A stretch of 64,000 nucleotides of DNA from Pristiophorus japonicus (lineage: Eukaryota): NCBI RefSeq assembly GCF_044704955.1, contig NC_091979.1:162006001-162070000 (forward strand). The letters are read 5' to 3'. The notes under the pieces were generated by a model, which did no database searches, had not been told where the DNA came from, and was given only the letters and a program-made list of their open reading frames with translations. Shown one piece after another: positions 10,636 to 64,000 of this stretch (the stretch's first letter is position 1; each line of letters starts with the position of its first letter). The translations under genes were made by a program, and so were the position numbers.

Positions 10636-10911
10636 TTAGATGACCACAATGCGGCGGAAAGAGCCGACAGTAGCCACGATGGCACCCCAGTCATTGAATC
10701 TCCTGTATTCACCGGGTCTCATGAAGTACTGCCGGCCTCTGTAGTTGGGATGTTCATAGAAGGTCCAGTAACCGTCCATCACATGGCAGGAGTGAATGTC
10801 ATGATGGTGGAAACGATCGTAGACAGATGGACAGTCATCCAGGAATTCCATCATCTGACCTCCAAAGTCAGGCCTCTCATGAACTTTTATTTTGTATGAA
10901 GCCCCGCTTGT
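10636..10911 (-). CDS. cryg: Gamma-crystallin gene A exon 3 (C-terminal domain)
   Basis: CAG acceptor at 10912-10914; [22 protein letters not shown]; TAA at 10636-10638. Confidence 0.93.
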
Positions 10912-32219: not shown

Positions 32220-33630
32220 TACATAAGAAACATACAAACATAGAAGCCATAGAAAATAGATGCAGGAGTAGGCCATTCGGCCCTTTGAGCCAGCACCACC
32301 ATTCAACAAGATCATGGCTGATCATTCACCTCAGTACCCCTTTCCTGCTTTCTCTCCATATCCCTTGATCCCTTTAGCCATATCTAGCTCCCTCTTGAAT
32401 ATATCCAATGAACTGGCATCAACAACTCTCTGCAGTAGGGAATTCCACAGGTTAACAACCCTCTGAGTGAAGAAGTTTCTCCTCATCTCAGTCCTAAATG
32501 GCTTACCCCTTATCCTTAGACTATGTCCCCTGGTTCTAGACTTCTCCAACATCGGGAACATTCTTCCTGCATCTAACCCGTCCAGATCCGTCAGAATTTT
32601 ATATGTTTCTATGATATCCCCGCTCATCCTTCTAAACTCCAGTGAATACAAGCCCAGTTGATCCAGTCTTTCTTGATATGTCAGTCCCGCCATCCTGGGA
32701 ATCAGTCTGGTGAACCTTCGCTGCATCCCTCAATAGCAAGAACGTCCTTCCTCAGATTAGGAGACCAAAACTGAACACAATATTCCAGGTGAGGCCTCAC
32801 TAAGGTCCTGTACAACTGCAGTAAGACCTCCCTGCTCCTATACTCAAATCCCCTAGCTATGAAGGCCAACACACCATTTGTCTTCTTCACCGCCTGCTGT
32901 ACCTGCATGCCAACTTTCAATGACTCGTGTACCATGACACCCAGGTCTCGTTGCACTTCCACTTTTTCTAATCTGCCACAATTCAGATAATATTCTGCCT
33001 TTGTGTTTTTGCCACCAAAGTGGATAATCTCACATTTATCCACATTATACTGCATGTGCCATGCATTTGCCCACTCACCTAACCTATCCAAGTCACCCTG
33101 CAGCCTCTTAGCGTCCTCCTCACAGCTCACACCACCGCCCAGCTTAGTGTCATCTGCAAACTTGGAGATATTACACTCAATTCCTTCATCTAAATCATTA
33201 ATGTATATTGTAAATAGCTAGAGCCCCAGCACAGAGCCCTGCGGCACCCCACAAGTCACTGTCTGCCAGTCTGAAAAGGACCCGTTTATCCCGACTCTCT
33301 GCTTACTGTCTGCCGACCAGTTCTCTATCCACGTCAGTACATTACCCCCAATACCATGTGCTTTAATTTTGCACACAAATCTCTTGTGTGGGACCTTGTC
33401 AAAAGCCTTTTGAAATTCCAAATACACCACATCCACTGGTTCTCCCTTGTCCACTCGACTAGTTACATCCTCAAAAAATTCTGGAAGATTTGTCAAGTAT
33501 GATTTACCTTTCATAATTCCATGCTGATTGGACTGATCCAGCCACTGCTTTCCAACATTTTCCCCACTACTGATGTCAGGCTAACTGGTCTATAATTACC
33601 CGTTTTCTCTCTTCCTCCTTTCTTAAAAAG
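32220..33630 (-). mobile_element. CR1 LINE, 5'-truncated
   Basis: RT and C-terminal ORF2 fragments ([22 protein letters not shown]) and an octamer-repeat tail at 32220-32255. Confidence 0.92.
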
Positions 33631-34331: not shown

Positions 34332-36491
34332 ATGCAATGTGGTGCAAGGACCAAGAATTTCTTACAGGATGAAGTGGAGACACTAGTTACTGTGATTGAG
34401 ACCAGAGGGCATGAGCTGGACACCAGCAGAGGTCACATAAAAGTTCCACCCAAAGAAATGAAGAAACGCTGGAACCAAGTTGCAGAAGATTACTGTGCAA
34501 TGGTGATCACCACGAGATCTAGAGGCCAATGTAAAAAGAAGTGGCAGGACCTTGGTCAAGTAGTTAGTGTAAGTAATATTTTCATTTATTCAATGGAATT
34601 GCAATTGTAAATGTGACCAGCTGTATATGGACCCCCAGCAGAAAGAAACCCTCTCTAAACAGTTGCATTTTCATCTTTGCAGAGGAAGGTGGCATAACAA
34701 AAGGGAAAGAACTCGAACAGGAGGAGGCCTGGTAAATCAGCAGCCACTGACATCCTTAGAAGAGAGGGTCACTGCTTTGATGGGTCCTGCCTGGAGAAAA
34801 GCAACCACCACTGCACAAGCTGGGCCCACAGTCGAGGGAGAGGGTAAGTCCTGCAAATTTCAGAGTCTGGCTTTGCTAAATGTTAAGTACTGCGCGGGCT
34901 AGCCATGCTTTGGTTCCTGGGGATGTTTCCTTCAGCTACACTTAGGTTGATGCAATGTGCTGTCATTCATTGTGGTTCTTCAAATCAACCTGCTGCCTGC
35001 GCTGTGTGAGCCTACTCATGCCACCCACCCTGCCCCCTCCTCTGCTGCTAACCATTTGTCTGTTCTGTTACATTTTGCAGAACTTGAGGCCAACCCTGAC
35101 GATGCAGAAGAAGATTCAGACGAGGACGAGCCTCAAGAGAAGAACATCTTCCAATTCCTCCCTCCAGAACAAGAGTATGGGGGTGAGAGGAGGGGGAGGG
35201 AATGGAGATGGATGAAGCCCCCACTGTTTTACTGACTTTGGAGGAGGTGCAGGTGCCACCCATTGAGGTGCCAGCCCCTTCTGTGACTAGCGGTTTGAGT
35301 GTTGGTGGGACATTCCATGGTTTCACACCTTCCGAGGCTGCAGGTCCTAGTGTTGGGGTGCAGCGAGGCACAGACAGGGCCCCACCTTCCAAGGCTGCAG
35401 GTCCCAGTGGTGGGCTACAGTGAGGCACACCCAGGATGAGGAGGGAAAGGAGAGCTCTACAGCGCTCTGCTGAAGTGCAGGATTTAACAGATGTGGTTCA
35501 GACGATGGCACTGAGTGCGGAGAGCATTGACCTCACATGATCATTCCTGGACACCATCAGTGGGGTGGGTGATGAGGTAGCGGGACTGTCGGGAGAAGTA
35601 ACAGCAATCTCACGAGAAATGGGAACAATGTCCAGGACCATGAGTGAGGGAATATCTCAGTCAATTGAAACCATGTCAGTGACCATGAGGGAGGGAACAT
35701 CAGTGGAATTCATTGCTTCGGAGAGCTGTATAAGCTGGGACATTAAATAAATTTAAGACAGAAATAGACAGTTTCTTAAATGATATGGGGATAAGGGGTT
35801 ATTGGGAGTGGGCAGGGAATTGGAACTGAGTCCATGATCAAATCAGCCATGATCTTATTGAATGGCAGAGTAAGCTCGAGGGGCCTTATGGCCTACTCCT
35901 GCTCCTATTTCTTATGTTCTTATGTTCTTATGTTCACAGGTAGCTGATGCGCTGTCAGTGAACATTAGGGAGGGAATGTCAGAGATGGTGCAAACACTAT
36001 CAGTGAATATGAGGGAGGGAATGTCACAGGTAGTGCAAACACTATCAGTGAACATAGGGAGGGATTGTTGCAGTTAGTTGAGACACTTTTGCTCAACATG
36101 AGGGAGGGAATGTTACAGGTCATTGAGACACTGTCAGGGCGCATGAGGGACGGCATGTTGGAGTTAGCTGCTGCAATAAGGGAACACACCCAGACTCCAC
36201 GCCTATTGACCGAATCACTCCCACTCCAATCCCGACACCAACCTCTGAAAGGCCCCAAGCCGGGCCCTCCACATTGCCGTCTGGGCCCTCCACATTGCTG
36301 CCTGAGCCCGCCAATTGCTGCCTGGGTCCTCCACATTGCTGCCTGCATGCCCCCCTCCTTCCTTCCCCCACCCGCTCCACAGATGCGCACTACCCGAGAT
36401 CGTAGAAAGAATAAGCTTGGTACCAACCCCAGAAACACTGTGCCACCGTCTGCGAGCAGGGGTAGTGGAGTCACCAAGAACAAGCGCGTAA
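34332..36491 (+). pseudogene. Harbinger Myb/SANT-like DNA-binding protein gene (spliced, disrupted)
   Basis: ARTKNFLQDEVETLV...KKRWNQVAE...RSRGQCKKKWQDL|GTAAGT, then RTRTGGG...LTSLEERV, an acidic tract and 15-aa repeats; interrupted by a CR1 tail. Confidence 0.8.
35703..35933 (+). mobile_element. CR1 3'-end fragment
   Basis: CR1 3' UTR and (TTCTTATG)n tail similar to 21450-21672. Confidence 0.85.
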
Positions 36492-36899: not shown

Positions 36900-39800
36900 T
36901 GGAATAGTTGACGCTGAGCTCTCGTGCAGCAAAGCGTTCGTGGATAAGCTGCTGGCTTGAGCAATCGTTTAAAGGGGCACGATGGCCCGCCCTCCTCCGC
37001 CGACCTACTCCAGGTTCAGGTAGTTGCATGGCTTCCTCGTCCTTGGCCTCCTGTTTATCATCTGCATCTTCCTCATCGGTATCATCAGCCACTCTCACCG
37101 CAGGTGGGTTTTCTCCTAATAGCTGCTGCTACCTCATGAAGGCTAAGCTATGCAGCATGCAGCACACAACAGTGAACTGACCGACAATTTCAGGGGAATT
37201 TAGCAAGTAGCCTCCAGGCATCAGAAATGCTGTTTTAAGATGCCAATGGTCCTCTCCATGATGCTGCGTGTTGCAATGTGCGACATGTGGTATTCCCGGT
37301 CAGCTTCCGTCCGGGTTATGTGTAGGGGCATCATGAGCCAGGTGGCGAGGCTGTACCCTTTGTCTCCCAGTAGCCAGCTCTGTCCTTCTGGCTGCTGCTG
37401 AAACATGGCTGATATAACGCTCTCACGTAGGATGAACGCATCATGGGTGCTCCCAGGGTAACTTCCACCGACTGACATGATGTGATGCATGTCGTCACAC
37501 ACGAGCTGCACATCAATAGAGTGGAAGCCTTTTCTGTTCCTGTACATCTTGGAATCCTCCAAAGGTGCTCGCCTTTGGATGGTATCCAGGATGGTATGTT
37601 GCCTCCCTGGTGCAAGGGTCAAGGATGTTTCGGAGCGGGTGCAGGACATTCTAAAAAGGGAGGGAGAACAGCCAGTTGTCGTGGTGCACATTGATACCAA
37701 CGACATAGGTAAAAAAAGGGATGAGGTCCGATGAGACGAATTTAAGGAGCTAGGAGCTAAATTAAAAAGTAGGACCTCAAAATTAGTAATCTCGGGATTG
37801 CTACCAGTGCCATGTGCTAGTCAGAGTAGGAATCACAGGATAGCGCAGATGAATACGTGGCTTGAGCAGTGGTGCAGCAGGGAGGGATTCAAATTCCTGG
37901 GGCATTGGAACCGGTTCTGGGGGAGGTGGGACCTGTACAAACCGGACGGTCTGCACCTGGGCAGGACCGGAACCAATGTCCCAGGGGGAGTGTTTGCTAG
38001 TGCTGTTGGGGAGGAGTTAAACTAATATGGCAGGGGGATGGGAACCAATGCAGGGAGACAGAGGGAAACAAAAAGGAGACAAAAGCAAAAGACAGAAAGG
38101 AGATGAGTAAAAGTGGAGGGCAGAGAAACCCAAGGCAAAAAACAAAAAGGGCCACTGAATAGAAAGGGGCTGCAGGAGGGGTCAAAACTAAAAATCATGG
38201 TTTAAAACTAGGATTAAAACACTCTACCTAAATGCACGCAGCATTCGAAATAAAGTAAATGAGTTGACGGCACAAATCATTACAAATGGGTATGATTTGG
38301 TGGCCATTACAGAAACATGGTTGCAGGGTGGCCAAAACTGGGAATTAAACATACAGGGGTATCTGACAATTCGGAAAGATAGACAAGAAGGGAAAGGAGG
38401 TGGGGTAGCTCTGTTAATAAAGGATGATATCAGGGCAGTTGTGAGAGACGATATTGGTTCCAGTGAACAAAATGTTGAATCATTGTGGGTGGAGATTAGA
38501 GATAGTAGGGGGAAAAAGTCACTGGTGGGCGTAGTTTATAGGCCCCAAATAATAACTTCACGGTGGGGCGGGCAATAATCAAGGGAATAATGGAGGCATG
38601 TGAAAAAGGAACGGCAGTAGTCATGGGGGATTTTAATCTACATATCGATTGGTCAAATCAAATCGCACGGGGTAGCCTGGAGGAGGAATTCATACAATGC
38701 ATATGGGATTGTTTCTTAGAACAGTATGTTACAGAACCTACAAGGGAGCAAGCTATCTTAGATCTGGTCCTGTGTAATAAGACAGGAAAAATAAACGATC
38801 TCCTAGTAAAAGATCCTCTCGGAATGAGTGATCACAGTATGGTTGAATTTGTAATACAGATTGAGGGTGAGGAAGTTGTGTCAGAAATGAGCATACTATG
38901 CTTAAACAAAGGGGACTACAGTGGGATGAGGGCAGAGTTGGCTAAAGTAGACTGGGAACACAGACTAAACGTTGGCACAATTGAGGAACAGTGGAGGACT
39001 TTTAAGGAGCTCTTTCATAGTGCGCAACAAAAATATATTCCAGTGAAAAAGAAGGGTGGTAAGAGAAGGGATAACCAGCCATGGATAACCAAGGAAATAA
39101 AGGAGAGTATCAAATCAAAGACCAATGCGTATAAGGTGGCCAAAGTTAATGGGAAACTAGAAGATTGGGAAAATTTTAAACAACAGCAAAGAATGATTAA
39201 AAAAACAATAAAGAAAGGAAAGATAGATTTCGAAGGTAAACTTGCGCAAAACATAAAAACAGATAGTAAAAGCTTTTACAGATATATAAAACGGAAAAGA
39301 GTGACTAAAGTAAATGTTGGTCCCTTAGAAGATGAGAAGGGGGATTTAATAATGGGAAATGTGGAAATGGCTGAGACCTTAAACAATTATTTTGCTTCGG
39401 TCTTCACAGTGGAAGACACAAAAATCATGCCAAAAATTGCTGGTCACAGGAATGTGGGAAGGGAGGACCTTGAGACAATCACTATCACTAGCGGGGTAGT
39501 GCTGGACAGGCTAATGGGATTGAAGGTAGACAAGTCCCCTGGTCCTGATGAAATGCATCCCAGGGTATTAAAAGAGATGGCGGAAGTTACAGCAGATGCA
39601 TTTGTTATAATCAACCAAAATTCTCTGGACTCTGGGGAGGTACCAGCGGATTGGAAAGCAGCTAATGTAACGCCTCTGTTTAAAAAAGGGGGCAGACAAA
39701 AGGCAGGTAACTGTAGGCCGGATAGTTTAACATCTGTCGTGGGGAAAATGCTTGAAACTATCATTAAGGAAGAAATAGCAGGACATCTAGATAGAAATAG

Positions 39801-41635
39801 TGCAATCAAGCAGACGCAGCATGGATTCATGAAGGGGAAATCATGTTTAACTAATTTACTAGAATTCTTTGAGGATATAACGAGCATGGTGGATAGAGGT
39901 GTACCGATGGATGTGGTGTATTTAGATTTCCAAAAGGCATTCGATAAGGTGCCACACAAAAGGTTACTGCAGAAGATAGAGGTACGTGGAGTCAGAGGAA
40001 ATGTATTAACATGGATAGAGAATTGGCTAGCGAACAGAAAGCAGAGAGTTGGGATAAATGGGTCCTTTTCGGGTTGGAAATCGGTGGTTAGTGGTGTGCC
40101 ACAGGGATCGGTGCTGGGACCACAACTGTTGACAATACACATAGATGACCTGGAAGAGGGGACAGAGTGTAGTGTAACAAAATTTGCAGATGACACTAAG
40201 ATTAGTGGGAAAGCGGGTTGTGTAGAGGACACAGAGAGGATGCAAAGAGATTTGGATAGGTTAAGCGAATGGTCGAAGGTTTGGCAGATGGAATACAATG
40301 TCGGAAAGTGTGAGGTCATCCACCTTGGGAAAAAAAAACAGTAAAAGGGAATATTATTTGAATGGGGAGAAATTACAACATGCTGCGGTGCAGAGGGATC
40401 TGGGGGTCCTTGTGCATGAATCCCAAAAAGTTAGTTTGCAGGTGCAGCAGGTAATCAGGAAGGCAAATGGAATGTTGGCCTTCATTGCGAGAGGGATGGA
40501 GTACAAAAGCAGGGAGGTCCTGCTGCAACTGTACAGGGTATTGGTGAGGCCACACCTGGAGTACTGCGTGCAGTTTTCGTCACCTTACTTAAGGAAGGAT
40601 ATACTGGCTTTGGAGGGGGTACAGAGACGATTCACTGGGCTGATTCCGGAGATGAGGGGGTTACTTTATGATGATAGATTGAGTATACTGGGTCTTTACT
40701 CGTTGGAGTTCAGAAGGATGAAGGGTGATCTTATAGAAACATTTAAAATGATGAAAGGGATAGACAAGATAGAGGCAGAGAGGTTGTTTCCACTGGTAGG
40801 GGAGGCTAGAACTAGAGGGCACAGCCTCAAAATACGGGGGAGCCAATTTAAAACCGAGTTGAGAAGGAATTTCTTCTCCCAGAGGGTTGTGAATCTCTGG
40901 AATTCTCTGCCCAAGGAAGCAGTTGAGGTTAGCTCATTGAATGTATTCAAGTCACAGAACGATAGAATTTTAACCCATAAGGGAATTAAGGGTTACGGGG
41001 AGAGGGCAGGTAAGTGGAGCCATGATCTTATTGAATGGCGGAGCAGGCTCGAGGGGCTAGATGGTCTACTCCTGTTCCTAATTCTTATGTTTTTATAAGG
41101 CGATGTGAGTACAATCAATGCAGCCCTGTACTTTTGGGAAGCCAGCAATCCTGGAGAAGCCCACAGCCCTGAGACGCATTGCCTGGGTGGTCATGGGGAA
41201 CTTTATGTAGTCACTTTTCTGGGCATATAGTGCAGCTGTCACCTGCCGAATGCAGACGTGTGTTGCATGTTGAGAAATGGGGCACACATCCTAAGTTGTA
41301 GCTTGAAATGATCCAGAGGCATAGAATGAAAGTGCAGCTGTAACCTTCATTTCAACTGACAAAGCAGTCCTCCTGAGGCTTCTAGGTTGCAGGTCTGCTT
41401 TCAACAACTCACAGATCTCATTTACAATGTCTTTGCGGAAACACAGCCTTCTGACACAGTCTGCATCACTCAAGTGGAGGTACGAATGCCTGGCTCGATA
41501 TACCTGAGGTGGGTAAGGCCTCCTGCCCAGCACCCTATGGGCTCCGAGGTTCCTCATGCAAGATGTCAAATTATTTGTCTCCTCCGTAGCACCGTGATAC
41601 AGAAGGCACTCACAAGGTATGGCATTGTCAGTATT
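36900..41635 (-). pseudogene. Harbinger transposase (HARBI1-like DDE), split by a CR1
   Basis: AALSFYASGSFQ...GFPKVQGCIDCTHIAL (41635-41097) joins in frame to RAPLE..NRKGFHSI..YPGSTHDAF..LLGDKGY..MERTIGILK (37572 downward). Confidence 0.88.
37573..41096 (+). mobile_element. CR1 LINE with near-intact ORF2
   Basis: ORF1 esterase end, then ORF2 in three overlapping pieces (38264-38578, 38563-40344, 40298-41098) covering APE, RT (FADD) and the C-terminus. Confidence 0.95.
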
Positions 41636-42735
41636 AACATAGAAACATCGAAAATAGGTACAGGAGTAGGCCATTTGGCACTTCAAGCCTGCACCACCAA
41701 TCAATATGATCATGGCTGATCATGCAACTTCAGAACCCCATTCCTGCTTTCTCTCTATACCCCTTGAACCCTTTAGCCGTAGGGCCACATCTAACTCCAT
41801 TTTGAATATATCTAACGAACTGGCCTCATAAACTTTCTGTGCTGGAGAATTCCACAATTCTCTGAGTGAAGAAGTTTCTCCTCATCTCGGTCCCAAATGA
41901 CTGACTCCTTATCCCTAGTCTGTGAACCCTGGTTCTGGACTTCCCCAACATTGGAAACATTCTTCCTGCATCTAACATCTCCAATCCCGTCAGAATTGTA
42001 TATGTTTCTATGAGATCCCCTCTCATTCTTCTAAATTCCAATGAATATAAGCCTAGTCGATCCCATCTTTCTTCATATGTCAGTTCTGCCATCCCGGGAA
42101 TCAGTCTGGTGAACCTTCGCTGCACTCCCTCAATAGCAAAAATATCCTTCTCAGATTAGGATACCAAAACTGCACACAATACTCAATGTGTGGTCTCACC
42201 AAGGCCCTGTACCAGTAAGACCGGCCTGCTCCTTTACTCAAATCCTCTAGCTATGAAGGCCAGCATGCCATTTGCCTTCTTTACTGCCTACTGTACCTGC
42301 ATGCTGACCTTCAATGACTGATGTACCATGACACCCAGGTCTCGTTGCATCTCCCCTTTTACTAATCTGTCACCATTCAGATAATAATCTGCCTTCCTGT
42401 TTTTGCAACCAAAGTGGATAACCTCACACTTATCCTCATTATACTGCATCTGTCATGCATTTGCCCATTCACCTAACCTGTCCAAGTCACCCTGCAGCCT
42501 CCTAGCATCCTCCTCGCAGCTCGCACTGCCACCCAGCTTAGTGTCATCTGCAAACTTGGAGATATTAATTTAATTTCTTTGTCTAAATCATTAATGTATA
42601 TTGTAAATAATTGGGGTCCCAGCACTGCACCATGCGGCACCCCACTAGTCATTGCCTGCCATTCTGAAAAGGACCCGTTTATTCCCACTCTTTGCTTCCT
42701 GTCTGCCAACCAGTTCTCTATCCACGTCAATACAT

Positions 42736-42784
42736 TTAGGGTTAGGGTAAGGGTTAGGGTTAGGGTTAGGGTTAACCCTAACCC
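42736..42784. repeat. Short interstitial telomeric sequence, head-to-head
   Basis: TTAGGG TTAGGG TAAGGG TTAGGG TTAGGG TTAGGG T TAACCC TAACCC; absent from sibling CR1 copies (e.g. 33330-33360). Confidence 0.95.
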
Positions 42785-42882
42785 CAATACCAGGTGCCTT
42801 AATTTTGCACACTAATCTCTTGTGTGGGACCTTATCAAAAGCCTTTTGAAAGTCCAAATACAACACATCCACTGGTTCTCCC

Positions 42883-45800
42883 GAATGTGTTCCTAACACA
42901 GATGAGGCTGCACACAGGGAGGTTAAAGTAACAGCGACCTCAGTCTTTATAAAGACACTCCAGAGTGAGGAACAGGCCTTAGGGGCCGGTTTATATACAG
43001 TGCTCCCAAGGGATGCTGGGATCCCTTGGGACTTCAGGGGATGCGCTCCCTGGTGGCAGAACATGGGAGTGCATGCTTTACAGATACACAACATCACTCC
43101 ACCCCCAAAGTTAAAGTGAAAACTATTTACAAGGTTAGACGGTCGGGAGCCTTTCTTTCCCTGGTGGACTGCCTCGGTACAAATGTCTGTTCTGGTGTGT
43201 TGGCTGTGCCCTCACTGGGCTGGTGTGTTGTTGGCCCTGCAGCGCTGCTGGGTGAGCCTGGCCTTACTGTGCTGTTGGGCGTGATGGGTTCAATTTCCTG
43301 GTCCAGGGTGGTGTCGTTGATCCTTTGGGTGTGTGTTGTGGGCTCGAAAAAGGTGGTGTCTGCTGTGCTCAAGGTAATCTGTGAACCGCAGCCTCGTTTG
43401 GTCCAGGTGCTTTCTGCAAATTTGTCCATTTTCTAGTTTGACTACAAACAGCCTACTCCCTTTAGCTATCACCGTGCCCGCGATCCACTTGGGACCATGA
43501 CCATAATTTAGCGCATACACAGGGTCATTCAGATCAATTTCCCGTGACACAGTGGCGTGACCATCGTTTACATTTTGTTGCTGCCGCCTGCCCTTTACCT
43601 GATCATGCAGGTTGGGGTGAACCAGCGAGAGTCTGGTTTTAAGTGTCCTTTTCATGAGTAGCTCAGCCGGGGGCACCCCTGTGAGCGAGTGGGGTCTCGT
43701 GCGGTAGCTGAGCAGTACTCGGGACAGGCAGGTTTGGAGTGAGACTTCTGTGACTCGTTTAAGGCTCTGTTTGATTGTTTGTACTGTCCGCTCTGCCTGC
43801 CCACTGGAGCTGGTTTAAACGGGGCCGATGTGACATGTTTGATCCCATTGCGGGTCATGAATTCTTTAAATTCAGCACTGGTGAAACATGGCCCGCTGTC
43901 ACTGACCAGTATGTCAGGCAGGCCTTGGGTGGCAAACATGGCCCTCAGGCTTTCAATGGTGGGCAGTGGCGGTGCTTCCAGACATTATTTCACATTCAAT
44001 CCATATTGAAAAAGCATCCACCACCACCAGGAACATTTTACTGAGAAACGGACCTGCATAGTCTACATGGATCCTCAACCATGGTCTGGAGGGCCAGGAC
44101 CACAAACTTAGTGGTGCCTCTCTGGGCGTGTTGCTCAACTGAGCACACACGTTGCATTGCCGTACACAGGACTCAAAGTCAGAGTCGATACCGGGCCACC
44201 ACACCATACTATACCCGGGTGTGTGCTGTGGAGATCCGAGATGAATGGCTCACTGCCCTTTTTGGGTAACACTACGTGGTTACCCCACAACAGGCAGTCT
44301 GCCTGAATGGACAGCTCATCCTTTCACCGCTGGAATGGCTTGATTAGCTCTTGCATTTCAACACGGATGCTGGCCCAGCTCCCACACAGTATACAGTTTT
44401 TTACTCGGGACAGCAGAGGATCTTGGCTGGTCCAATCCTAATCTGGCGGGCCATGACAGGTGATTTATCATTTTCAAATGCTTCCATGACCATCAATAAG
44501 TCTGCGGGCTGCGCCACCATCAACAAGTTTGCAGGCTGCGCCATTTCCACCCCCGTGGTGGGCAATGGTAGCCAACTGAGAGCATCCGCACAGTTCTTGG
44601 TGCCTGGCCTGTGGCAGATGGTATAGTTATACGCTGATAGCGTGAGTGCCCACCTTTGTATGCGGGCTGAGGCATTAGTAGTTATCCCCTTGTTTTCAGC
44701 GAACAGGGATATGATGGGCTTGTGATCGGTTTCCAGCTCAAATTTGAGGCCAAACTGGTACTGATGCATTTTTTTTACCCTGAAAGTGCTGTCGGCCCTC
44801 TCGGCCTTAGACAAGCTCCTGGAGGCATAGGCGACATGTTGCAATTTCCCCGCAAGGTTAGCTTGTTGGAATACACACTACAATGCATTACATGCTAACA
44901 CAAGTCTTTTACAAGGGTTATACAGTACAAGCAGCTTGTTGGAGCATAAAATGTTTCTGGCTTTCTCAAAAGCAATTACTTGTTTTTTTTCCCATACCCA
45001 GTTCTCACCTTTACACAATAACACATGTAGGGGCTCTAAGAGGGTGCTTAACCCCAGTAGGAAGTTACCAAAATAGTTGAGGAGTCCCAGGAACGACCGC
45101 AGCTCCGTGATGTTCTGTGGCCTGGGCGCGTTCCTGATAGCCTCTGTCTTGGTGTCTGTGGGCCGAATGCCATCCGCCGTGATCTTTCTCCCCAAAAACT
45201 CCACTTCTGTTGCCATGAAGACGCATTTCGACCTCTTCAGCCGCAGCCCTACGCAATCCAGTCGCTGGAGGACCTCCTCCAGGTTTGTAGGTGCTCGACG
45301 GTGACCAATATGTCGTCCTGAAAAACCATCATGCGTGGTACCGACTTGAGTAGGCTTTCCATGTTTCTCTGGAAGGTCACTGCAGCCGACCGAATTTCAA
45401 ACGGGCATCTGCTGTAGATGAACAGTCCCTTGTGCGCGTTGATGCAGATGAGGCCCTTCAAAGACTCCTCCAGCTCCTGCGTCATGTAGGCCGAAGTCAG
45501 GTCGAGCTTGGTGAACGTCTTGCCTCCTGCCAGCGTCGCAAATAGGTCGTCTGCCTTCGGTAGCGGGTATTGGTGAGAAATGATTAATAGTTACTTTATA
45601 ATTGCTGCAAATCCTGACCGTGCCATCACTTTTGAGAACTGGAACAATTGGGCTGGCCCACTTGCTGAATTCCACTGGGGAGATGATGCTCTCGCGTTGC
45701 AGCCTGTCCAGCTCAATTTCCACTCTCTCCCTCATCATGTGAGGTACCGCTCACGCCTTGTGGTGAATGGGTCGTGCCTCTGGGACCAAGTGAATCCGCA

Positions 45801-47398
45801 CCTTCACCCCGGAAATGTTTCCAATGCCTCGCTCAAAAAGGGAAGGAAATTTGTTAAGAACCTGGATACATGAGGCCTCATTGACATGTGATAGCGTTCG
45901 GATGTCATCCCAGTTCCAGCGGATTTTGCCCAGCCAGCTCCTTCCAAGCAGTGTGGGGCCATCGCATGGGACAATCCAGAGTGGCAGTTCGTGCACCGTG
46001 CCCTCGTAAGTGACCTTGACCATGACGCTGCCCAGCACAGTGATGAGCTCTTTGGTGTACGTTCTCAGTTTCATGTGAATGGGGCTCAGGGCTGGTCTGA
46101 GTGCCTTGTTGCACCACAGTCTCTCAAACATCTTTTGACTCATGATGGATTGGCTAGCTCCAGTGTCCAGTTCCATGGCTATCGGTAAGCCATTCAATTT
46201 TACATTTCACATTATAGATGGACATTTTGTCGAAAATGTGTGCACCCCGTGTACTTCAGCATCTGCCTCCTCTCTCTGAGGCTCGAAATTGCTTTGATCC
46301 ACCATGGACTGATCTTCCTCTGCCACGTGGTGGTTAGCAGGTTTTGCAGAGCTTGCAGCTCGTCTGCAAGCTCATTGGAGGTGCCCCATTGTTCCACAGC
46401 TCTTGCAAACATACCCTTTGAAGCGGCATGAATAGGCTGAATGGAAGCCTCGACAACGCCAACAAGGTGTGAATTGCCTTGCATTCATCCTTTGTTGCGG
46501 ACTCTGAGTCATCTGGGTCACCTGAGGCCTGCTGGCAGTTGCAGACTCGTGGTTTCTTCCCTGTACATTTCTGCTCGCAAACACAGTTCCAGTTATTAAA
46601 TGAACATTGCGAGCACTTGTGTGCTGAGAGATTTGTTTGGTGTTATCACTGGTGGACATAAACGCCTGTGCTATCGCAATGGCCTTACTGAGTGTCGGTG
46701 TCTCTGCAGTCAAAAGTTTTCGTAAGGTGGTCTTGTGGACAATGCCCAGTTCAAAAAAGTCTCTGAGCATCTGTTCCACGTAGCCATCAAAATCACATTG
46801 TCCTGCAAGTCGCCTTAGCTCGGTGACGTAGCTCGCCACTTCCTGACCTTCAGATCGCTGGCACGTGTCGAACCGATACCTTGCCATCAGCATGCTCTCC
46901 CATGGGTTAAGATGCTCCCGAACCAGTGTACACAGCTCCTCATATGACTTATCTGTGGGTTTCACCGAGCCAGAAGATTCTTCATGAGGCTGTCGGTCGG
47001 TGTCCCGCAGGCCGCGAGGAGGACCGTTCTCCTTTTTGCAGCGCTTCCTTCTCCGTCCAACTCGTTGGCTACAATATACTAGTCTAGATGTTCAACATAG
47101 GCTTCCCAGTCCTCACCCTCCGAGAACTTTTCCAGGATGCCCACAGTTTGCTGCATCTTTGCGTTGGATTCGTATTCTCGTCGCCAGTTATTGTGTCCCT
47201 ACACAGATGAGACTGCACACAGGGAGGTTAAAGTAACAGTGACCTCAGTCTTTAATAAGACACTCCAGAGTGAGGAATAGGCCTTAGGGGCCGGCTAATA
47301 TATAGTACTCCTAAGGGATGCTGGGATCCCTTGGGACTTCAGGGGATGCACTCCCTGGTGGCGGAATATGGGAGTGCATGCTTTACAGGTACACAACA
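42883..47398 (-). mobile_element. Gypsy (Mag-like) LTR retrotransposon 2
   Basis: LTRs 42883-43093 and 47189-47398, TSD CTCCC, PBS TGGCGACGAG 47177-47186. Gag CCHC, protease LDTGAS, RT, RNase H and integrase fragments. Confidence 0.95.
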
Positions 47399-50300
47399 CT
47401 CCCTTATCCACTCTACTAGTTGCATCCTCAAAAAATTTTAGATTTGTCAAGCATGATTTCCTTTTCATAATTCCATGCTGACTTGGACTGATCCTGTCAC
47501 TGCTTTCCAAATGCGCTGCTATTACATCTTTAATAATTGATTCCAACATTTTCCCCACTACCGATGTCAGACTAACCGGTCTATAATTCCGTTTTCTCTC
47601 TCCCTCCTTTTTTAAAAAGTGGGGTCACATTAGCTACCCTCCAATCCATAGGAACTGAACCAGAGTCTAGAGAATGTGGAAAATTACTACCAATAGAACC
47701 ATTATTTCTAGGGCCACTTTCTTAAGTACTCTGGGATGAAGACTATCAGGCCCTGGGGATTTATCGGCCTTCAATCCCTTCAATTTCTCTAACACCATTT
47801 CCTGACTAATAAGGATTTCCCTCAGTTCCCCCTTCTCTCTAGACCCTCGGTCCCCTAGTATTTTCGGGAGATTATTTATATCTTCCTTAGTGAAGACAGA
47901 ACCGAAGTATTTGTTCAATTGGTCTGCCATTTCCTTGTTCCCCATTATGAATTCCCTTGATTCTGACTGCAAAGGACCTACATTAGTCTTCACTAATCTT
48001 TTTCTCTTCACATATCAATGGATGCTTTTGCAGTCAGTTTTTATGTTCCCTGCAAGCTTACTTTCAGACTCTATTTTCCCCCTCCTAATTAAACACTTTG
48101 TCCCCCTCTGCTGAATACTAAATTTCTCCCAGTCCTCAGGCTTGCTGTTTTTTCCGACCAATTTATATGCCTCTTCCTTGGATTTAACACTTTCCCTAAT
48201 TTCCCTTCTTAGCCACGATTGAGCCACCTTCCCTTTTTTATTCTTACACCACACAGGGATGTAGGATTGTTGTAGTTCATCCTTGTGATATTTAAATGTC
48301 TGCCATTGCCTATCCACCGTCAACCCTTTAAGCATCATTCTCCAGTCTATCCTAGCCAATTCACCTCTCATACCGTCGAAGTTTCCTTTCTTTAAGTTCA
48401 GGACCCTAGTCTCGGAATTAACTGTATCACTCTCCATCTTAATGAAGAATTCTACCATATTATGGTCACTCTTCCCCAAGGGGCCACGCATGACCAGATT
48501 GCTAATTAATCCTCTCTCGTTACACAAGATCCAGTCGAGGATGGCCTGCTCTCTAGTTGGTTCCTTGACATATTGGTCTAGAAAATCATCCCTTATGCAC
48601 TCCAGGAAATCCTCCTTCATAGTATTGCTACCAGTTTGGTTAGCCCAATCAATGTGCAGATTAAAATCACCCATGATCACTCCTGTAACCTTATTGCACG
48701 CGTCCCTAATTTCCTGTTTGATGCCATCCCCAACCTCCCTATTATAGTTTGGTGGTCTGTACACAACTCCCATTAATGTTTTCTGCCCTTTGCTGTTTCG
48801 CAGCTCTATCCATATTGATTCCACATCATCCATGTTAATGTCCTTCCTTACTGTTGCGTTAATCTCCTCTTTAACCAATAACGCTACCCCACCTCCTTTT
48901 CCTTCCTGTCTGTCCTTCCTGAATATTGAATACTCCTGGATGTTGAGTTCCCAGCCTTGGTTACCTTGGAGCCATGTCTCCATAATCCCAATTACATCAT
49001 ATCCGTTAACAGCTATCTGCGCAGTCATTCATCCATCTTATTACGAATGCTCCTCGCATTGAGACTCAGAGCCTTCAGGCTTGTTTTTTTTAACACTCTT
49101 TGTCCTTTTAGAATTATGTTGTAATGTGGCCCTTTTTGCTTTTTGCCTTGGGTTTCTCTGCCCTCCAAGCTTGCTTTTCTCCTTCCTACCTTTTGCTTCT
49201 TTCCCCTTTTTACTTCCCTCTGCCTCCCTGCATAGGTTCCCATCCACCTGCCTTTTTAGTTCAACCCCTCCCCAACAGCACTAGCAAACACTCCGCCTAG
49301 GACATAGGTTCCGGTCCTGCCCAGGTGCAGACCGTCTGGTTTCTACTGGTCCCACCTCCGCCAGAACCGGTTCCAATCTCCCAGGAATTTGAATCCCTCC
49401 CCCTTGCACCATTCCTCAAGCCATGTATTTAGCTGAGCTATCGTGCAATTCCTACTCTGACTAACACGTGGCACTGGTAGCAATCCTGAGATTACGACCT
49501 TTGAGGTCCTAATTTTTAATTTAACTCCTAGCTCCCTAAATTCAGTTTGGAGGACCTCATCCAGTTTTTTACCTATATCGTTGGTACCTATATGTACTAC
49601 GACAGCTGGCTGTTCACTCTCCCCCTCCAGAATGCGCTGCAGCCGCTCCGAGACATCCTGGAGTCTCGCTTGCGGCCGCAGAAACACTTGTCTATTCCTC
49701 TTACAACAGAATCACTATAGCTCTCCCACTCTTTTTCCTGCCCTCCTGTGCAGCAGAGCCACCCCTGATGCCATGGACTTGGCTGCTGCTGCCTTCCCCT
49801 GATGAGTCGTCTCCCCCAACAGTACCCAAGGTGGTGTATCTGTTTTGTAGGGAGATGCCCGCAGGGGACCCCTGACCTACCTTCCTTCCACTGCTCTTCC
49901 TGATGGTCACTCATTCCCTATTTGCCTGTGTCACCTTTACCTGCGGTGTGACCAACTCACTTAATGTGCTATTCACGACATCCTCAGCATCGTTGATGCT
50001 CCACTTTGAATCCCTCCGCAGCTCCAGTGCCACAATGCGGTCTGTCAGGAACTGCGGCTGGATACACTTCCTGCACATTTAGTTGTCAGGGACATATAGC
50101 ACAGGAGGAGATGACATGGTTCTGGATTCTCCTGCCATGACGTAACCCTTAAATTACTTAATTTGGCAACAATGCCAAAGGTTTCTTACTGCTAAGAACA
50201 AGAAAAAAGATAAAGAAAAAGAAAACTACTCACCACTCAACCAGCCAATCACTTACCCTCTTGGCTGTGACATCACCCTTCGATTACTTTTTACTTCTTT

Positions 50301-53007: not shown

Positions 53008-54986
53008 TGTTATGTCTCAAATAAAGCAATGTGACTGAGTACACTCCAAAACAGACATCTATTGTAGATGAACAGACCTTTGTGTGTGCTGATGCAGCTG
53101 AGGCCTTTCGAAGATTCCACCAGCTCCTGCGTCATGTAGGTCGAGGTCAGGTCCAACTTGGTGAATGTCTTCCCTCCTGCCAGTGTCACAAATAGGTCAT
53201 CTGTCTTTGATAGTGGGTACTGATCCTGCAATGAAAAACAGTTAATCGGTACTTTATAGTCCCCACAAATTCTGATCATGCCATCGCCCTTGAGAACTGG
53301 AACAATCGGACTGGCCCACTCGTTTGAACTCAACCGGCGCGATGGTGCCCTCTCATTGCAGCCTGTTCAGCTCAATCTCCACTTTCTCTCGCATCATGTA
53401 TGGCACCGCACGTGTCTTGTGGTGGATGGGTCGTGTACCGGGAACCAAGTGGATCTGCACCTTTGCCCCAGAGAAATTTCCGATGCCTGGCTCAAACAAT
53501 GATGGGAACTTGCTCAAAACCTGGGCAAATGAGGCGTCATTGACGGACGAAAGCGCTCAAATGTCGTCCCAGTTCTGCGGATTTTTCCCAGCCAGCTTCT
53601 GCCGAATAGTGTGGAGCTATCTCCTGGTACAATCCATAGTGGTAGTTCGTGCACCGCTCCATCATAGGAGACTTTTACTGTTGCACTGCCAATTACAGGG
53701 GTCAGCTCTTTAGTGTAAGTTCTCAGCTTGGTATGAATAGGGCTCAACTTGGGCCTTTGTGCCTTGTGCTCCACAGCCTCTCAAAGGCCTTTTTGCTCAT
53801 GGATACTGGAATTCCATTCAGTTCAACTTTTAACATGATCGATGGACATTTCGTGGTGAAGGTGTGTATCCCGTACACTGTTGCCTCCTTGATTCGAGTC
53901 TCTAGTTCAGTTTGATCCACCATGGATCGGTCTTCCTCTGCAACGTAGTGGTTTGCAGGGTTTGCAGCTTGTCTGAACATTCAGTGGAGGTGTCCCATCG
54001 TTCCACAGCCTTTGCACGCATAGTGTTTGATGCGGCATTGATGGGCTCAATGATCACCTCCACAGTCCCAACAAGGTGTTAATTGCCTTGCATTCACACT
54101 TGATGGTGGGCCCTGAGTCATCTGAGGTCGTGCAGCTGCAGGCGTGTACATTCTGCCATATACATTCCTGCCTGAAAACGACGTTACTTTGTGTACAGTA
54201 CTAGCCTATGCATCTTTGTGCTGCGAAATTTGTTTGGTGTTATCCCTGGTGGATATAAATGCCGAGGCTATCGTTATGGCTTTGCTCAGGTTCGGTGTTT
54301 CAACAGTCAATAGTTTGCGAAGGATAACCTCATGGCCAATGCCAAGCACAAAAAAGTCTCTTAGCATTTGCTCCAGGAATCCACCGAATTCGCAATGTCC
54401 TGCAAGGCGCCTTAGTTCGGCGACGTAGCTCGCCACTTCTTGGCCTTCAGACCGTTGACACGTATAAAATCGACACCTTGCCATCAAAACGCTTTCTTTC
54501 AGATTTAGGTGCTCCCGGACCAGCGTACACAGTTCTTCATTCGATTTGGTTGTTTATTTCACCGGAGCAAGAAGCCATAGCCCCGCAGACGGTGAGGAGG
54601 ATCGCCTTTCGTTTGGCAGTGTTCTCATTCCCTTCCAGCTCGTTGGCCACGAAGTATTGGTCGAGTCGCTCCACGAAGGCTTCCCAATCGCCACCTTCTG
54701 AGAATTTCTCCAGGATACCAACAGTTCTCTGCATTTTCGCGTGATTGTTCATTATCTAATACTCATCACTAGTTGTTATGTCTCAAATAAAGCAATGTGA
54801 CTGAGTACTGTAAACTTGAGTAAGTGCGACCTTAGTCTTTTTATTCTAACTCCAGAGTGCTGGCACAGCATTGGAGGCCTGCTTATATGCAGTGTTCCCA
54901 AGGGAGGCTGGGATCCCTTGGGACTCCAACAGATGCGCCCTCTGGTGGTGGTAGAATGCTGGTTGCAAGGTGTTGCATACATAACA
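53008..54986 (-). mobile_element. Gypsy (Mag-like) LTR retrotransposon 3, internally deleted
   Basis: 5' LTR 54774-54986; only about 35 bp of the 3' LTR remain (53008-53042). TSD GACTG/AACTG, decayed PBS, gag-PR-RT N-half present, RNase H and integrase lost. Confidence 0.9.
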
Positions 54987-58438: not shown

Positions 58439-58714
58439 TTACAAATCCCTCATGCGCCTGAAAGATCCGACAGTTGAGTTGTAGCCGCCCCAGTCACTGA
58501 ATCTCCTGTATTCACCGGGTCTCATGAAGTACTGTCGGCCTCTGTAGTTGGGTTGTTCATAGAAGTTCCAGTAACCGTCCATCACATGGCAGGAGTGAAT
58601 GTCACGGTAACGGAAACGATCGTAGACAGATGGACAGTCATCCATGAATTCCATCATCTGTCCTCCAAAGTCAGGCCTCTCGTAAATCTTCATTCGGTAG
58701 TTTCCACCTCGGTA
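58439..58714 (-). CDS. cryg: Gamma-crystallin gene B exon 3
   Basis: TTCCAG acceptor at 58715-58720; Greek keys 3-4; TAA 58439-58441. Confidence 0.95.
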
Positions 58715-59478
58715 CTGGAATAGAAATAAAATAACATTAGCCACGACATTATAAATAGATCGGGGTAGATTTTTACTTTCGGTGGCAGCGGAGAACTGGT
58801 GGTAGATGTTGTACACCCCACCCGATCTTCCATTCCAGTCCTTTCCATTGACTTCACTGGAAAGTAAAATCAGATGGGGTGCATAATAATTTTTCTCCCA
58901 TGTACATATCATGTGGCATTTAGAATTATCCAACTGGCCTTACTGCTGTAACAAAAATATGGGCAGGTAGATGCAACACACAAGAAGCCACAATAGACAG
59001 GAGAAACAGAAAACAATGTTTCCGCTTTTGACACCCACACACCTAATTGCTGAGCATATTCATCATTCATTAATCCTCAATTAGTTTAGAACACAACAGA
59101 CAAGATGCATAGAGGACAAAATGATAACTTACGTATGGATAAGTGCGACATGACCCAATGCTGTCATTGAATCCCATCCAGCGCTGGTAGTCAGGATATT
59201 CTCCCCTGCTCAGAGCATACTGGTATCCCATGTAATTGGGTCTCTCATACGCCACCCACCAGTCACTCTCCACACGGATGGAGTTACAGCGTCTGAAGTA
59301 AGGGGACAGGTCAGTACAGTCAGTACTGCACTCGTAGTGCCGACCCTGGAAGTTCCTGTCCTCGTAAAAGATGATCTGTGGGGCAAAATAATGTTTGATA
59401 AGTAAGCAAGCTTCAGCATTTTGAATGTAATTACTAAAACTGCTAGCATTTACTGAGATAAAAATTTACCTTTCCCAT
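58439..59478 (-). CDS. cryg: Gamma-crystallin gene B (shark gamma-S1-like), 175 aa, join(59470-59478,59133-59375,58439-58714)
   Basis: 9/243/276-bp exons, GT-AG introns. [23 protein letters not shown]...[43 protein letters not shown]...GSFRRMRDL, intact. Confidence 0.95.
59133..59375 (-). CDS. cryg: Gamma-crystallin gene B exon 2
   Basis: 243 bp between CACAG and GTAAGT; Greek keys 1-2. Confidence 0.95.
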
Positions 59479-61418: not shown

Positions 61419-64000
61419 CGTTATGTATGTAATAAATCGATAAACTGAATACTGTAAACTAACACAGGTATAAACCTGGTTCTGCTTTATTAGGGCCCAA
61501 AGTGATTACATTACATGATGGCTTGCCTTTTATACCTGGGCCGCACACACGTGCGTACAGCCCAATGACCGCCGACAGTGGCGCCACTTGGTGGCGAGTA
61601 ACCCCAAGCATACATACATGACAATATTCCCCTTTAAAATATTAGTAACAATCTTTTTACAAATTAAGATGGTCCGGGACTTTCCGCTCCCGAGTTGATC
61701 GTCTCAGTTCAACTCCAGCCTTGGGCGAGCGTTCTGAGTCTGCTATGACTGGGGGCTGGGTAGCCGATCTGATGGGAGTGGCAATGATCATGTCAGGGAA
61801 AGTCCAGATCCACTGACGACAGCAGAGTCCTCTGATGACTGAGGGTAGGTTGGTTGGTCACTGATTGTGTCTTCCTCAGACTGTTCTGGTTCATCCATGT
61901 GCCTGCATGTTTGCCCATTCTTAAGCTTGATGATAAACACTCTGTTACCCTTCTTAGCCATAACAGTACCGGTGATCCACTTGGGATATTGACCATAATT
62001 TAGTACATACACAGGATCGTTAACAGGAATGTCACGTGACACAGCAGCGCGATCATGATACCACTGCTGGCGTTGACGTCTGTATTAATGTGATTGTTCA
62101 AGTCAGGGTGGACAAGAGGGAGCTTGGTCTTGAGACCGCTCTTCATCAATAGTTCAGCAGGGGGGACCTCGGTAAGCGTGTGCGGTCTTATCCTGTAACT
62201 AAGCAATGTGCATGACAAGCGAGTCTGCAGTGAACCTTGAGTTACACGTTTCATACTCTGCTTGATGGTTTGGACAGCACACTCTGCTTGACCATTAGAT
62301 GGGGGGTTGAATGGTGCTGACCTCACAAGTTTGATACCATTGAGTTTCATGAACTCTTGAAACTCCAGACTAGTGAAGCAAGGTCCGTTGTCGCTTACAA
62401 CGATGTCGGGCAGACCATGAGTGGCAAACGTGACACAAAGGCTCTCAATGGTAGCTCTGGATGTACTGGATGACATAATTATACACTCTATCCACTTGGA
62501 ATATGCATTCAACACAACTAAAAACATCTTTCCCAGGAAGGGACCGGCAAAGTCGATGTGGATCCTGGACCATGGTTTAGATGGCCACGACCACAGATTC
62601 AGCGGCGATTCCGCTGGTGCTTTACTTAGCTGCATGCAAGTGTTGCACTGATGCACACCTGATTCCAGATCAGAGTCAATTCCAGGCCACCATCCATGAG
62701 ACCTGGCAATGACTTTCATCATGACAATACTGGGATGAGTGCTATGTATATCATGTACAAATTTCTCTCTGCCTTTCTTAGGCATAACAACACGATTACC
62801 CCACAGTAAACAATCTGACTGAATGGATAGTTTGTCTTTGCGACGGTTGTAAGGTTTGGTCTCATGACCCACTTGCTTGGGTATGGCAGACCAATCACCA
62901 CTAAGGATACAACCTCTCACAACCGATTATATCGGGTCTTGGCTAGTCCAGGTCTTAACTTGTTGAGCCGTGACAGGGGTTCCTTCACTTTCAAAAGCAT
63001 CCATAACTAACAGTAGGTCTGCAGGTTGTGGCAGCTCCACCTCCAGTGTGGGCAACAGCAGACGGCTCAGTGCATTGGCACAATTCTCGGTGCCAGGTCT
63101 ATGGCGAATTACATAATCATAAGCAGATAATGTCAGCGCCCACCTCTGGATGCGGGACGATGCATTGGTATTTATACCTTTGTTTTCCGAAAACAATGAA
63201 ATGAGTGGCTTGTGATCTGTTTCGAATTCAAACCAAAAACCAAACAGGTACCGATGCATCTTTTTAACCCCATACACATAGGCTTTTTTCTACCATAGTG
63301 TAGGCGCTTTCCGCCTTTGACAAACTTTTAGAAGCATACGCAACCGGTTGTAGTTTACCCGACTCATTAGCTTGTTAGAGCACGCAACCAACTTCATATG
63401 ACAAAGCATTACAGGCAAATACAAGACTCTTACATGGATCATAATGTACCAGCAGCTTGTTAGAGCAAAGTAGATTAGTAGCTTTCTCAAAAGCTCTATC
63501 TTGAGACGCACCCCAAACCCAGTTGTTGCCTTTTTATAGCAGCATGTGCAGTGGCTCTAATGAAGTGCTCAATCTAGGTAGGAAATTACTGAAGTAGTTG
63601 AGTAGACCAAGGAATGAATGCAGCTCCATCACATTTTTGATGGCGTTGGTTTTCGAGTCCGTAGGCCTGATGCCATCAGCGGCAATTTTCTTCCCCAGGA
63701 ATTCAACTTCCGGTGCCATGAAGACGCACTTCGAACACTTCAGTCTGAGTCCCACTTTGTCTAGATGATGTAGAACCTCTTCCAGGTTGTTCAGATGTTT
63801 GGCGGTGTCACGGCCTGTCACAAACAGTCCTTTATGAGTGTTGATGCACGTAAGTTTCTTTGACGTCTCGACCAGCTCCTGTGTCATGTAGGCCGACATC
63901 AGATCCAGTTTAGTGAACAAATTTCCCCTGCCTAGCGTTGCAAACAAGTCATCAGCCTTCGGTAACGGGTATTGATCCTGTTTCGAAACTTGGTTGATCG
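61419..64000 (-). mobile_element. Gypsy (Mag-like) LTR retrotransposon 4, 3' half; continues beyond the window
   Basis: 3' LTR ~61419-61623 and PPT. Integrase 62000-62920 (HSTH..C..C, HIDFAGP, VSDNGP), RNase H 62927-63277, RT with internal deletion 63534-63947. Confidence 0.93.

What the first reader, a model, noticed from the sequence alone, without database searches (positions are those of the whole stretch)
42730..42790. Head-to-head telomeric repeats inserted into a CR1: likely scar of two-sided telomerase healing or mini-fusion
Seen: sibling CR1 copies read ...GTACATTACCCCCAATACC... (33337-33355). This copy reads ...ATACAT-(TTAGGG)2 TAAGGG (TTAGGG)3 T (TAACCC)2-CAATACC..., a ~45-bp insertion with the CR1 collinear on both sides. 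The G-rich strand runs 5'->3' toward the junction from both directions, and the arrays meet at a palindromic GGGTTAACCC. The original site offers telomerase-like seeds on each end (TTA on plus, GGG on minus). Established: short interstitial telomeric sequences arise at repaired double-strand breaks and are usually unidirectional, while head-to-head arrays mark telomere fusions. Inference: a germ-line break in which both ends were extended by telomerase and rejoined through TA microhomology, without chromosome rearrangement.
Basis: partly seen in the sequence, partly recalled or inferred. Interest (0 to 1): 0.7.

Follow-up and report, generated by a model that had tools for sequence, protein, structure and literature searches.

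The report
Head-to-head telomere scar in shark retrotransposon
A 45-base patch of telomere repeats, about six facing one way and one and a half facing back, interrupts a dead jumping-gene copy in a shark or ray genome; it looks like the scar of a repaired DNA break, a rare but already described kind, and not like a chromosome fusion.

Summary
The array is real (42736-42784). It lies in the reverse-transcriptase region of an old CR1 copy in an elasmobranch, and 4 of 4 sibling copies covering the site lack it. The simplest parse is a 2-bp loss plus a 45-nt insert, net +43, which shifts the frame. Two corrections: only 8 bases beyond the palindrome centre are new, because the last CCC is native; and the plus-side seed is 1 nt, not TTA, while the minus-side GGG seed holds. 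A break scar without fusion is likely (about 0.88). Telomerase at both ends (0.42) cannot be told from one-sided telomerase plus fold-back copying (0.33) at one locus. The model is in print: Sola 2021 proposed a second telomerase for head-to-head tracts at 3 of 41 loci. The TTAA junction is the commonest inward telomere junction in tumours and is fixed at a human chromosome 9 site (Muyas 2024). Read support across the array and an orthologous empty site were not obtained. New member of a known kind; interest 0.25.

The parts
42737..42781 (.). 45-nt telomeric insert (simplest single-event parse; replaces 2 native bases, net +43, frameshift in the CR1 RT region)
42736..42774 (+). Long G-rich arm: 6 units plus TTA; its first T is native (1-nt seed); one variant unit at 42748-42753
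42773..42784 (-). Short inverted G-rich arm: 9 new nt on the minus strand (42781 to 42773, counting the shared TA) preceded by 3 native in-register G's (42784-42782)
42772..42775 (.). TTAA inversion point; shared TA at 42773-42774; centre of a 22-bp perfect palindrome (42763-42784)
41636..42882 (-). 3' part of host CR1-type LINE (RT region to 3' tail), about 89-91% identical to its nearest siblings
47399..50077 (-). 5' part of the same CR1 copy (endonuclease and first part of ORF2), collinear with siblings
42886..47398 (-). LTR retrotransposon (Gypsy-like, label inferred) that splits the CR1 about 100 bp from the array; LTRs 42886-43093 and 47192-47398, 192 of 207 identical; 5-bp target duplication at 42878-42882 and 47399-47403

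Best explanation
A short interstitial telomeric sequence written into a germ-line double-strand break inside an already integrated, decaying CR1 copy. Two bases were lost at the break. Telomerase extended the left 3' end by about six repeats from a 1-nt match, and the right 3' end by one first round plus one repeat from a native GGG. The two G-rich tails paired through TA, the only self-complementary dinucleotide of the repeat, were trimmed, filled in and ligated, which restored the original chromosome. Shown: the insert, its geometry, the empty paralogues, the collinear flanks, the frameshift. Inferred: the break, the germ line, telomerase, and the order of steps. The wider claim (a post-insertion repair scar, no fusion) I put near 0.88; the confidence given is for the two-sided version.
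For: 4 of 4 sibling copies are empty and the flanks match them about equally on both sides. A one-event parse needs only a 2-bp loss and no extra point change. The minus end has 3 nt in register; 14 of 40 horse and about a third of rodent short ITSs have 3 or more, against at most 1.6% by chance, and 7 of 40 horse loci have exactly 1, like the plus end here (PMC7215372 Table 6; PMC2246262 Table 4). Seven new in-register bases by random fill have p about 6e-5. A contig of another organism's run joins both flanks with 17 letters where the window has 60, again the 43-nt difference (run X6 record 30; probably a paralogue). The same model was proposed for 3 of 41 TERC-ITS loci (PMC8537989 section 3.2). 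TTAA is the commonest inward junction, 14% of pure fusions, explained by TA microhomology (PMC10762111).
Against: The arms are very unequal (38 against 11 nt by x-drop; 8-9 new), and the better seed sits on the short arm. The plus seed is a single T, and the catshark telomerase RNA printed in PMC8537989 Table S1 would, read by eye, prime this end to give two T's, not three. Fold-back copying gives the same letters. The native sequence is inferred from paralogues 9-13% away whose C-run varies (5 or 6 C's), so the parse is not certain. No listed contig spans the array and no orthologous empty site was seen.
Confidence: 0.42

Rival explanations
1. One-sided telomerase plus templated inversion. 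Telomerase extended only the left end; its 3' TA folded back on an upstream repeat (or the right end copied the new C-strand), a repair polymerase copied 7-10 nt, and the new CCC annealed to the native GGG of the right end.
For: It explains the very short inverted arm, and reads the 3-nt match as joining microhomology. In yeast, short fold-back inversions at breaks are mostly under 14 bp and are captured by the other end with 0-5 bp microhomology (PMC11724301 passages). TA fold-back is one of two mechanisms proposed for inward telomere junctions (PMC10762111).
Against: Priming would rest on 2 bp; the yeast case used a 10-bp imperfect inverted repeat. The left-end strand up to the junction folds no better than shuffles (z +1.17). 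No variant unit lies in the short arm, so mirroring cannot be tested. Among 49 clean metagenome junctions only 6 have a long/short ratio of 3 or more (the pattern forces a minimum on both arms and the organisms differ).
Confidence: 0.33
2. Capture of a ready-made fragment: a small piece of already fused (inward) telomeric DNA, or cDNA of telomeric RNA, was ligated into the break by end joining, with no telomerase at the site.
For: Inward junctions with this exact breakpoint exist on short DNA fragments in ALT cells (PMC10762111). Junction overlaps of 1 and 3 nt are normal for end joining. TERRA-derived inserts are discussed as an alternative route to ITSs (PMC7215372 section 12).
Against: It needs a fragment broken 8 bp from a rare fusion point, and such fragments were described in ALT tumours, not in a telomerase-using germ line. 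Both arms are in register with native bases.
Confidence: 0.13
3. Assembly or read artefact (chimeric or fold-back read).
For: No listed contig spans the array; the laying tool skipped 42729-42788.
Against: The right flank continues the CR1 instead of mirroring the left flank, only 2 bp are missing, and the array carries one variant unit. The same junction occurs at 120 metagenome loci.
Confidence: 0.05
4. The insert came with the CR1 from a source copy and is shared by many copies.
For: The genome could not be searched, so other carriers are not excluded.
Against: The +43 shift breaks ORF2 inside the RT domain, so a carrier could not move by its own enzyme. 4 of 4 siblings in the window are empty.
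Confidence: 0.04
5. Relic of a true end-to-end chromosome fusion, as at human 2q13.
For: Head-to-head polarity is the defining mark of fusion ITSs (PMC8537989 introduction).
Against: 45 bp only, no subtelomeric sequence, and both flanks are consecutive bases of one CR1 reading frame less 2 bp. Two chromosomes would have had to break at the same base of two CR1 copies.
Confidence: 0.02

Closest known systems
Head-to-head short ITS / TERC-ITS loci of mouse lemur (2) and Xenopus laevis (1) (Sola et al. 2021, PMC8537989)
   Same: Short head-to-head tracts at a repaired break, explained by a second telomerase acting on the other end; 6 of 27 primate and rodent TERC-ITSs also lie inside transposable elements.
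   Different: Those loci carry a retrotranscribed telomerase-RNA fragment; this one has none. Their junction letters are in supplementary figures that were pictures and could not be read. The two catshark loci of that paper are types A and B and are not described as head-to-head in what I read.
Human 'chromosome 9 endogenous fusion' and inward ALT telomere fusions (Muyas et al. 2024, PMC10762111)
   Same: Identical TTAA breakpoint with TA microhomology; the chr9 site is a fixed interstitial head-to-head pair flanked by complex sequence.
   Different: Tumour fusions are telomere to telomere on fragments. The arm lengths and origin of the chr9 site were not seen (table not readable here).
Short ITSs of primates, rodents and horse (Nergadze 2007 PMC2246262; Santagostino 2020 PMC7215372)
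   Same: Few near-exact repeats, small deletion at the site, in-register bases at the break.
   Different: Usually one-way. The one horse head-to-head case described came with a 286-bp inversion, which is absent here.
Fusion ITS at human 2q13-14
   Same: Same head-to-head polarity.
   Different: Hundreds of bases between two subtelomeres of different chromosomes; here 45 bp inside one collinear LINE.
Short fold-back inverted insertions at breaks in yeast (PMC11724301)
   Same: A few inverted, templated bases captured by the second end with short microhomology.
   Different: No telomerase step, and a longer priming repeat.

Membership tests
Short ITS inserted at a double-strand break | A few near-exact TTAGGG units at an internal site | tested here: met
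   6.5 units, 1 mismatch in 45 nt, flanked by LINE sequence
Short ITS inserted at a double-strand break | Empty orthologous or allelic site | tested here: inconclusive
   4 of 4 paralogues empty; one empty contig in organism B at about 95% identity and depth 51.8 is probably a paralogue; no orthologue identified
Short ITS inserted at a double-strand break | End-joining-type change at the site (small deletion, addition or duplication) | tested here: met
   2-bp loss against the 33-kb sibling; no target duplication, longest repeat 6 nt; inferred from a paralogue
Short ITS inserted at a double-strand break | Native bases in register with the added repeats | tested here: met
   3 nt on the minus end, 1 nt on the plus end; the 1-nt match alone is not above chance
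Fusion ITS (human 2q13 type) | Head-to-head polarity | tested here: met
Fusion ITS (human 2q13 type) | Flanks are subtelomeres of two different chromosomes | tested here: not met
   Flanks are consecutive parts of one CR1
Fusion ITS (human 2q13 type) | Synteny break against relatives | not testable with these tools
   No eukaryotic genomes held; the outer-flank test within the window gave nothing
TERC-ITS | Telomerase-RNA fragment outside the template next to the repeats | tested here: not met
   All 45 inserted bases are telomeric register except one variant; no room for a fragment; compared by eye with the catshark RNA in PMC8537989 Table S1
Inward ALT telomere fusion | TTAA or TAA breakpoint with TA microhomology | tested here: met
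   TTAA at 42772-42775
Inward ALT telomere fusion | Arises in ALT cells between telomeric fragments | not testable with these tools
   Germ-line fossil; cell state unknown

The most novel reading that the evidence does not exclude
The scar records a hybrid repair route in a vertebrate germ line: telomerase lengthens one broken end, the new G-tail snaps back on its own TA, and a repair polymerase copies just enough C-strand to create microhomology with the other end. If so, very lopsided head-to-head micro-arrays would be a recurring, overlooked class of ITS (an 8-9-nt inverted arm reads as random filler). Shark genomes, where high-copy CR1 paralogues supply the empty site, would allow a direct count of one-sided against two-sided events. 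I did not see this hybrid proposed for short ITSs in searches (listings, and passages of the papers named), which is a limited look.
Probability: 0.25. Interest if true: 0.5.

Novelty: new member of a known kind. Interest (0 to 1): 0.25.

Why it matters
It is a clean example of a rare ITS subtype, and a reminder that head-to-head polarity does not by itself mean chromosome fusion. I saw no head-to-head short ITS reported from a shark or ray in one search (15 of 49 papers listed, titles and abstract starts only) or in PMC8537989, so it may extend the subtype to elasmobranchs. The phenomenon, the junction and the two-sided model are all in print, and the locus sits in dead repeat DNA with no sign of function. 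Its main use is methodological: paralogous CR1 copies give the pre-break sequence, so a genome-wide survey could test how the second arm is made.

Tried and rejected
Whole-genome search for other carriers and for other head-to-head ITSs: no genome is held.

Read check: 4 of 21 listed runs were laid (X1, X18 of organism A; X5, X6 of organism B), all as contigs. X1 may be the assembly's own sample and about 72% of it was read. The tool skipped 42729-42788 and dropped rows there; 32 pieces were shown and 231,507 were not, and none shown spans the array. Depth in bin 42742-42795 is far below its neighbours (X1 52,665 against 9.5 and 6.4 million; X18 5,868 against 374,324 and 518,348; X5 16.3 against 246 and 399; X6 6.7 against 100 and 54). 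That would fit a family without the insert, but repeat letters are skipped and human-like contigs are dropped, so I do not count it. Most laid contigs are paralogous CR1 copies, so the small word shares of organisms B-I say nothing about orthology.

Locus-specific junction pattern in metagenome contigs: 0 matches, uninformative.

Outer-flank continuity of the whole CR1: no third copy covers both flanks.

Dating: 1 mismatch in 45 (95% interval 0.06-11.8%) fits any age from recent to the CR1's own; LTR identity is 92.8%.

Hairpin as a selected structure: the finished scar folds (z -2.2), which follows from the palindrome and is no evidence of function.

TTA seed on the plus strand: rejected as written. 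Reading the last TAACCC unit as a one-base change of native sequence is possible but needs an extra mutation and leaves the inverted arm as short or shorter.

Earlier scan notes on this genome or this sequence: none. Supplements: Figures S1-S2 of PMC8537989 and file 4 of PMC10762111 are pictures and could hold junction sequences that bear on the comparison; the supplements of PMC7215372 were not read.

Full report
Setting. The window is elasmobranch DNA: a gamma-crystallin exon at 59.1-59.4 kb has its highest identities (88-92%) with shark and ray proteins. It is dense in LINE, LTR and DDE-transposon remains. No whole genome is held.

Observation. The array is as described: six G-rich units at 42736-42771 with one variant unit, TTAA at 42772-42775, then two TAACCC units. 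It is the only telomeric array in 64 kb, and the junction 16-mer was not matched in 100 shuffles. It sits in a minus-strand CR1-type LINE whose 3' part spans 41636-42882. An LTR element with a 5-bp target duplication splits that LINE about 100 bp further on, and the LINE resumes at 47399. All 4 sibling copies that cover the site are empty. For the three measured, identity is similar on both sides of the insert, as expected for one continuous copy.

Anatomy. Keeping the longest exact native prefix and suffix against the 33-kb sibling gives a 2-bp loss and a 45-nt insert at 42737-42781, net +43. Of the insert, 37 nt lie left of the palindrome centre and 8 right. So the inverted array is one and a half new units, and its last CCC is native. 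In register with the added repeats are 3 native bases on the minus end and 1 on the plus end. The sibling reads through this stretch in one RT frame, while the copy changes frame across the insert; the site falls inside the part that Pfam calls RVT_1 in another sibling's ORF. There is no target duplication and no telomerase-RNA fragment. The parse rests on paralogues 9-13% away, so it is the simplest reading, not a proven one.

Reads. Twenty-one runs hold part of the region. I laid four. The tool skipped the repeat letters, so the array is neither confirmed nor refuted. One positive item: run X6 record 30 joins both flanks with 17 letters in place of 60, the same 43-nt difference. At about 95% identity and depth 51.8 it is more likely a family contig than the orthologue. 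Against an artefact, the right flank does not mirror the left and the array carries a variant unit.

How common is the junction. Of 114 distinct junctions, 49 have at least 50 nt of flank on each side and no further telomeric hexamer within 30 nt; the other 65 were dropped from the counts that follow. Median arms are 22 and 16 nt, 6 of 49 have a ratio of 3 or more, and 12 of 49 carry a direct duplication of 10 bp or more against 10 of 2352 cross-locus controls. These are unidentified organisms, presumably eukaryotes, and the pattern sets minimum arm lengths. The result shows that the geometry is widespread; it does not show the shark mechanism.

Mechanism. A break inside the dead CR1, followed by telomeric addition and TA-guided rejoining, accounts for all letters. 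TA is the only self-complementary dinucleotide of the repeat, so any inversion route gives TTAA. The short arm can come from a second telomerase extension primed on GGG, or from fold-back copying of the first arm with CCC as the joining microhomology. One locus cannot separate these. I favour the first slightly (0.42 against 0.33) because a 3-nt seed is typical of telomerase-made ITSs and 2-bp self-priming is weak; the asymmetry, and the better seed lying on the shorter arm, pull the other way. Capture of a pre-fused fragment (0.13), artefact (0.05), inheritance from a source copy (0.04; the frameshift argues against) and true fusion (0.02) follow. These odds are my judgement.

Literature, and what I saw of each paper. 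PMC8537989 (passages, section 3.2 whole, Tables S1-S2 as text; figure pages unreadable): head-to-head tracts at 3 of 41 TERC-ITS loci, explained by a second telomerase on the other side of the break; two TERC-ITSs in a catshark. PMC10762111 (passages and a supplement search): this TTAA junction is the most abundant inward breakpoint (14%), arises from TA microhomology, has fold-back and ligation models, and is fixed at an interstitial human chr9 site. PMC7215372 (passages, one section) and PMC2246262 (passages): in-register statistics, and one horse head-to-head case made by inversion. PMC11724301 (passages): short fold-back inversions in yeast. 10.1101/2022.10.31.514589 (passages): end joining of an uncapped telomerase product is expected to give an interstitial insertion. 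PMC7002710, PMC11293586 and 10.1101/2025.05.15.654290 (passages): context only; in the passages seen, the last names only 2q14 as head-to-head among 522 human ITSs, so the subtype is rare. The label CR1 and the label Gypsy-like are from recall plus Pfam domains, not from a repeat library.

Earlier scan notes. None on this genome or sequence. Many unchecked notes describe head-to-head scars in bdelloid rotifers, and two describe telomere-repeat introns in marine microbes. I treat them as leads only.

Verdict. The feature is real as far as the assembly goes and is best filed as a head-to-head short ITS, not a fusion ITS and not a TERC-ITS. It is a new member of a known, uncommon kind, possibly the first noted in an elasmobranch within my limited searches. 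Interest 0.25.

Noticed in passing
metagenome loci L001-L120, e.g. L027, L059, L016, L070, L033, L100, L101: Short head-to-head TTAGGG inserts with a TTAA centre are common; 12 of 49 clean ones carry a direct duplication of 10-26 bp across the insert (control 10 of 2352), as from staggered breaks with both ends kept.
   Followed up: partly
high-GC loci among L002, L010, L039, L048, L053, L100: Several long-armed inserts begin after CT or CCT and end before AG or AAGG, which gives GT...AG intron-like borders, sometimes on both strands. This may be the telomere-repeat intron class that earlier scan notes reported in marine microbes.
   Followed up: no
window 42883-42885: Three extra bases lie between the left target duplication and the start of the LTR; the right side has none.
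   Followed up: no
window 58442-59462 (-), with matching exons at about 10649-10891 and 13386-13638: Two gamma-crystallin genes of an elasmobranch cluster, 88-92% alike in the matched exon regions.
   Followed up: partly
window 37619-41096 (+): A CR1-type copy of a more distant subfamily keeps a 600-codon open stretch with endonuclease and RT domains (38542-40344), so it is less decayed than its neighbours.
   Followed up: no
window 35955-36159 and 36262-36345: 45-bp and 21-bp tandem repeats inside an open frame next to DDE_Tnp_4 (Harbinger-like) remains.
   Followed up: no
window 16485-20977, 42886-47398, 53049-54986, 61894-63980: Four related LTR-element copies, 65-75% alike; two have both LTRs, each pair about 92-93% identical.
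   Followed up: no
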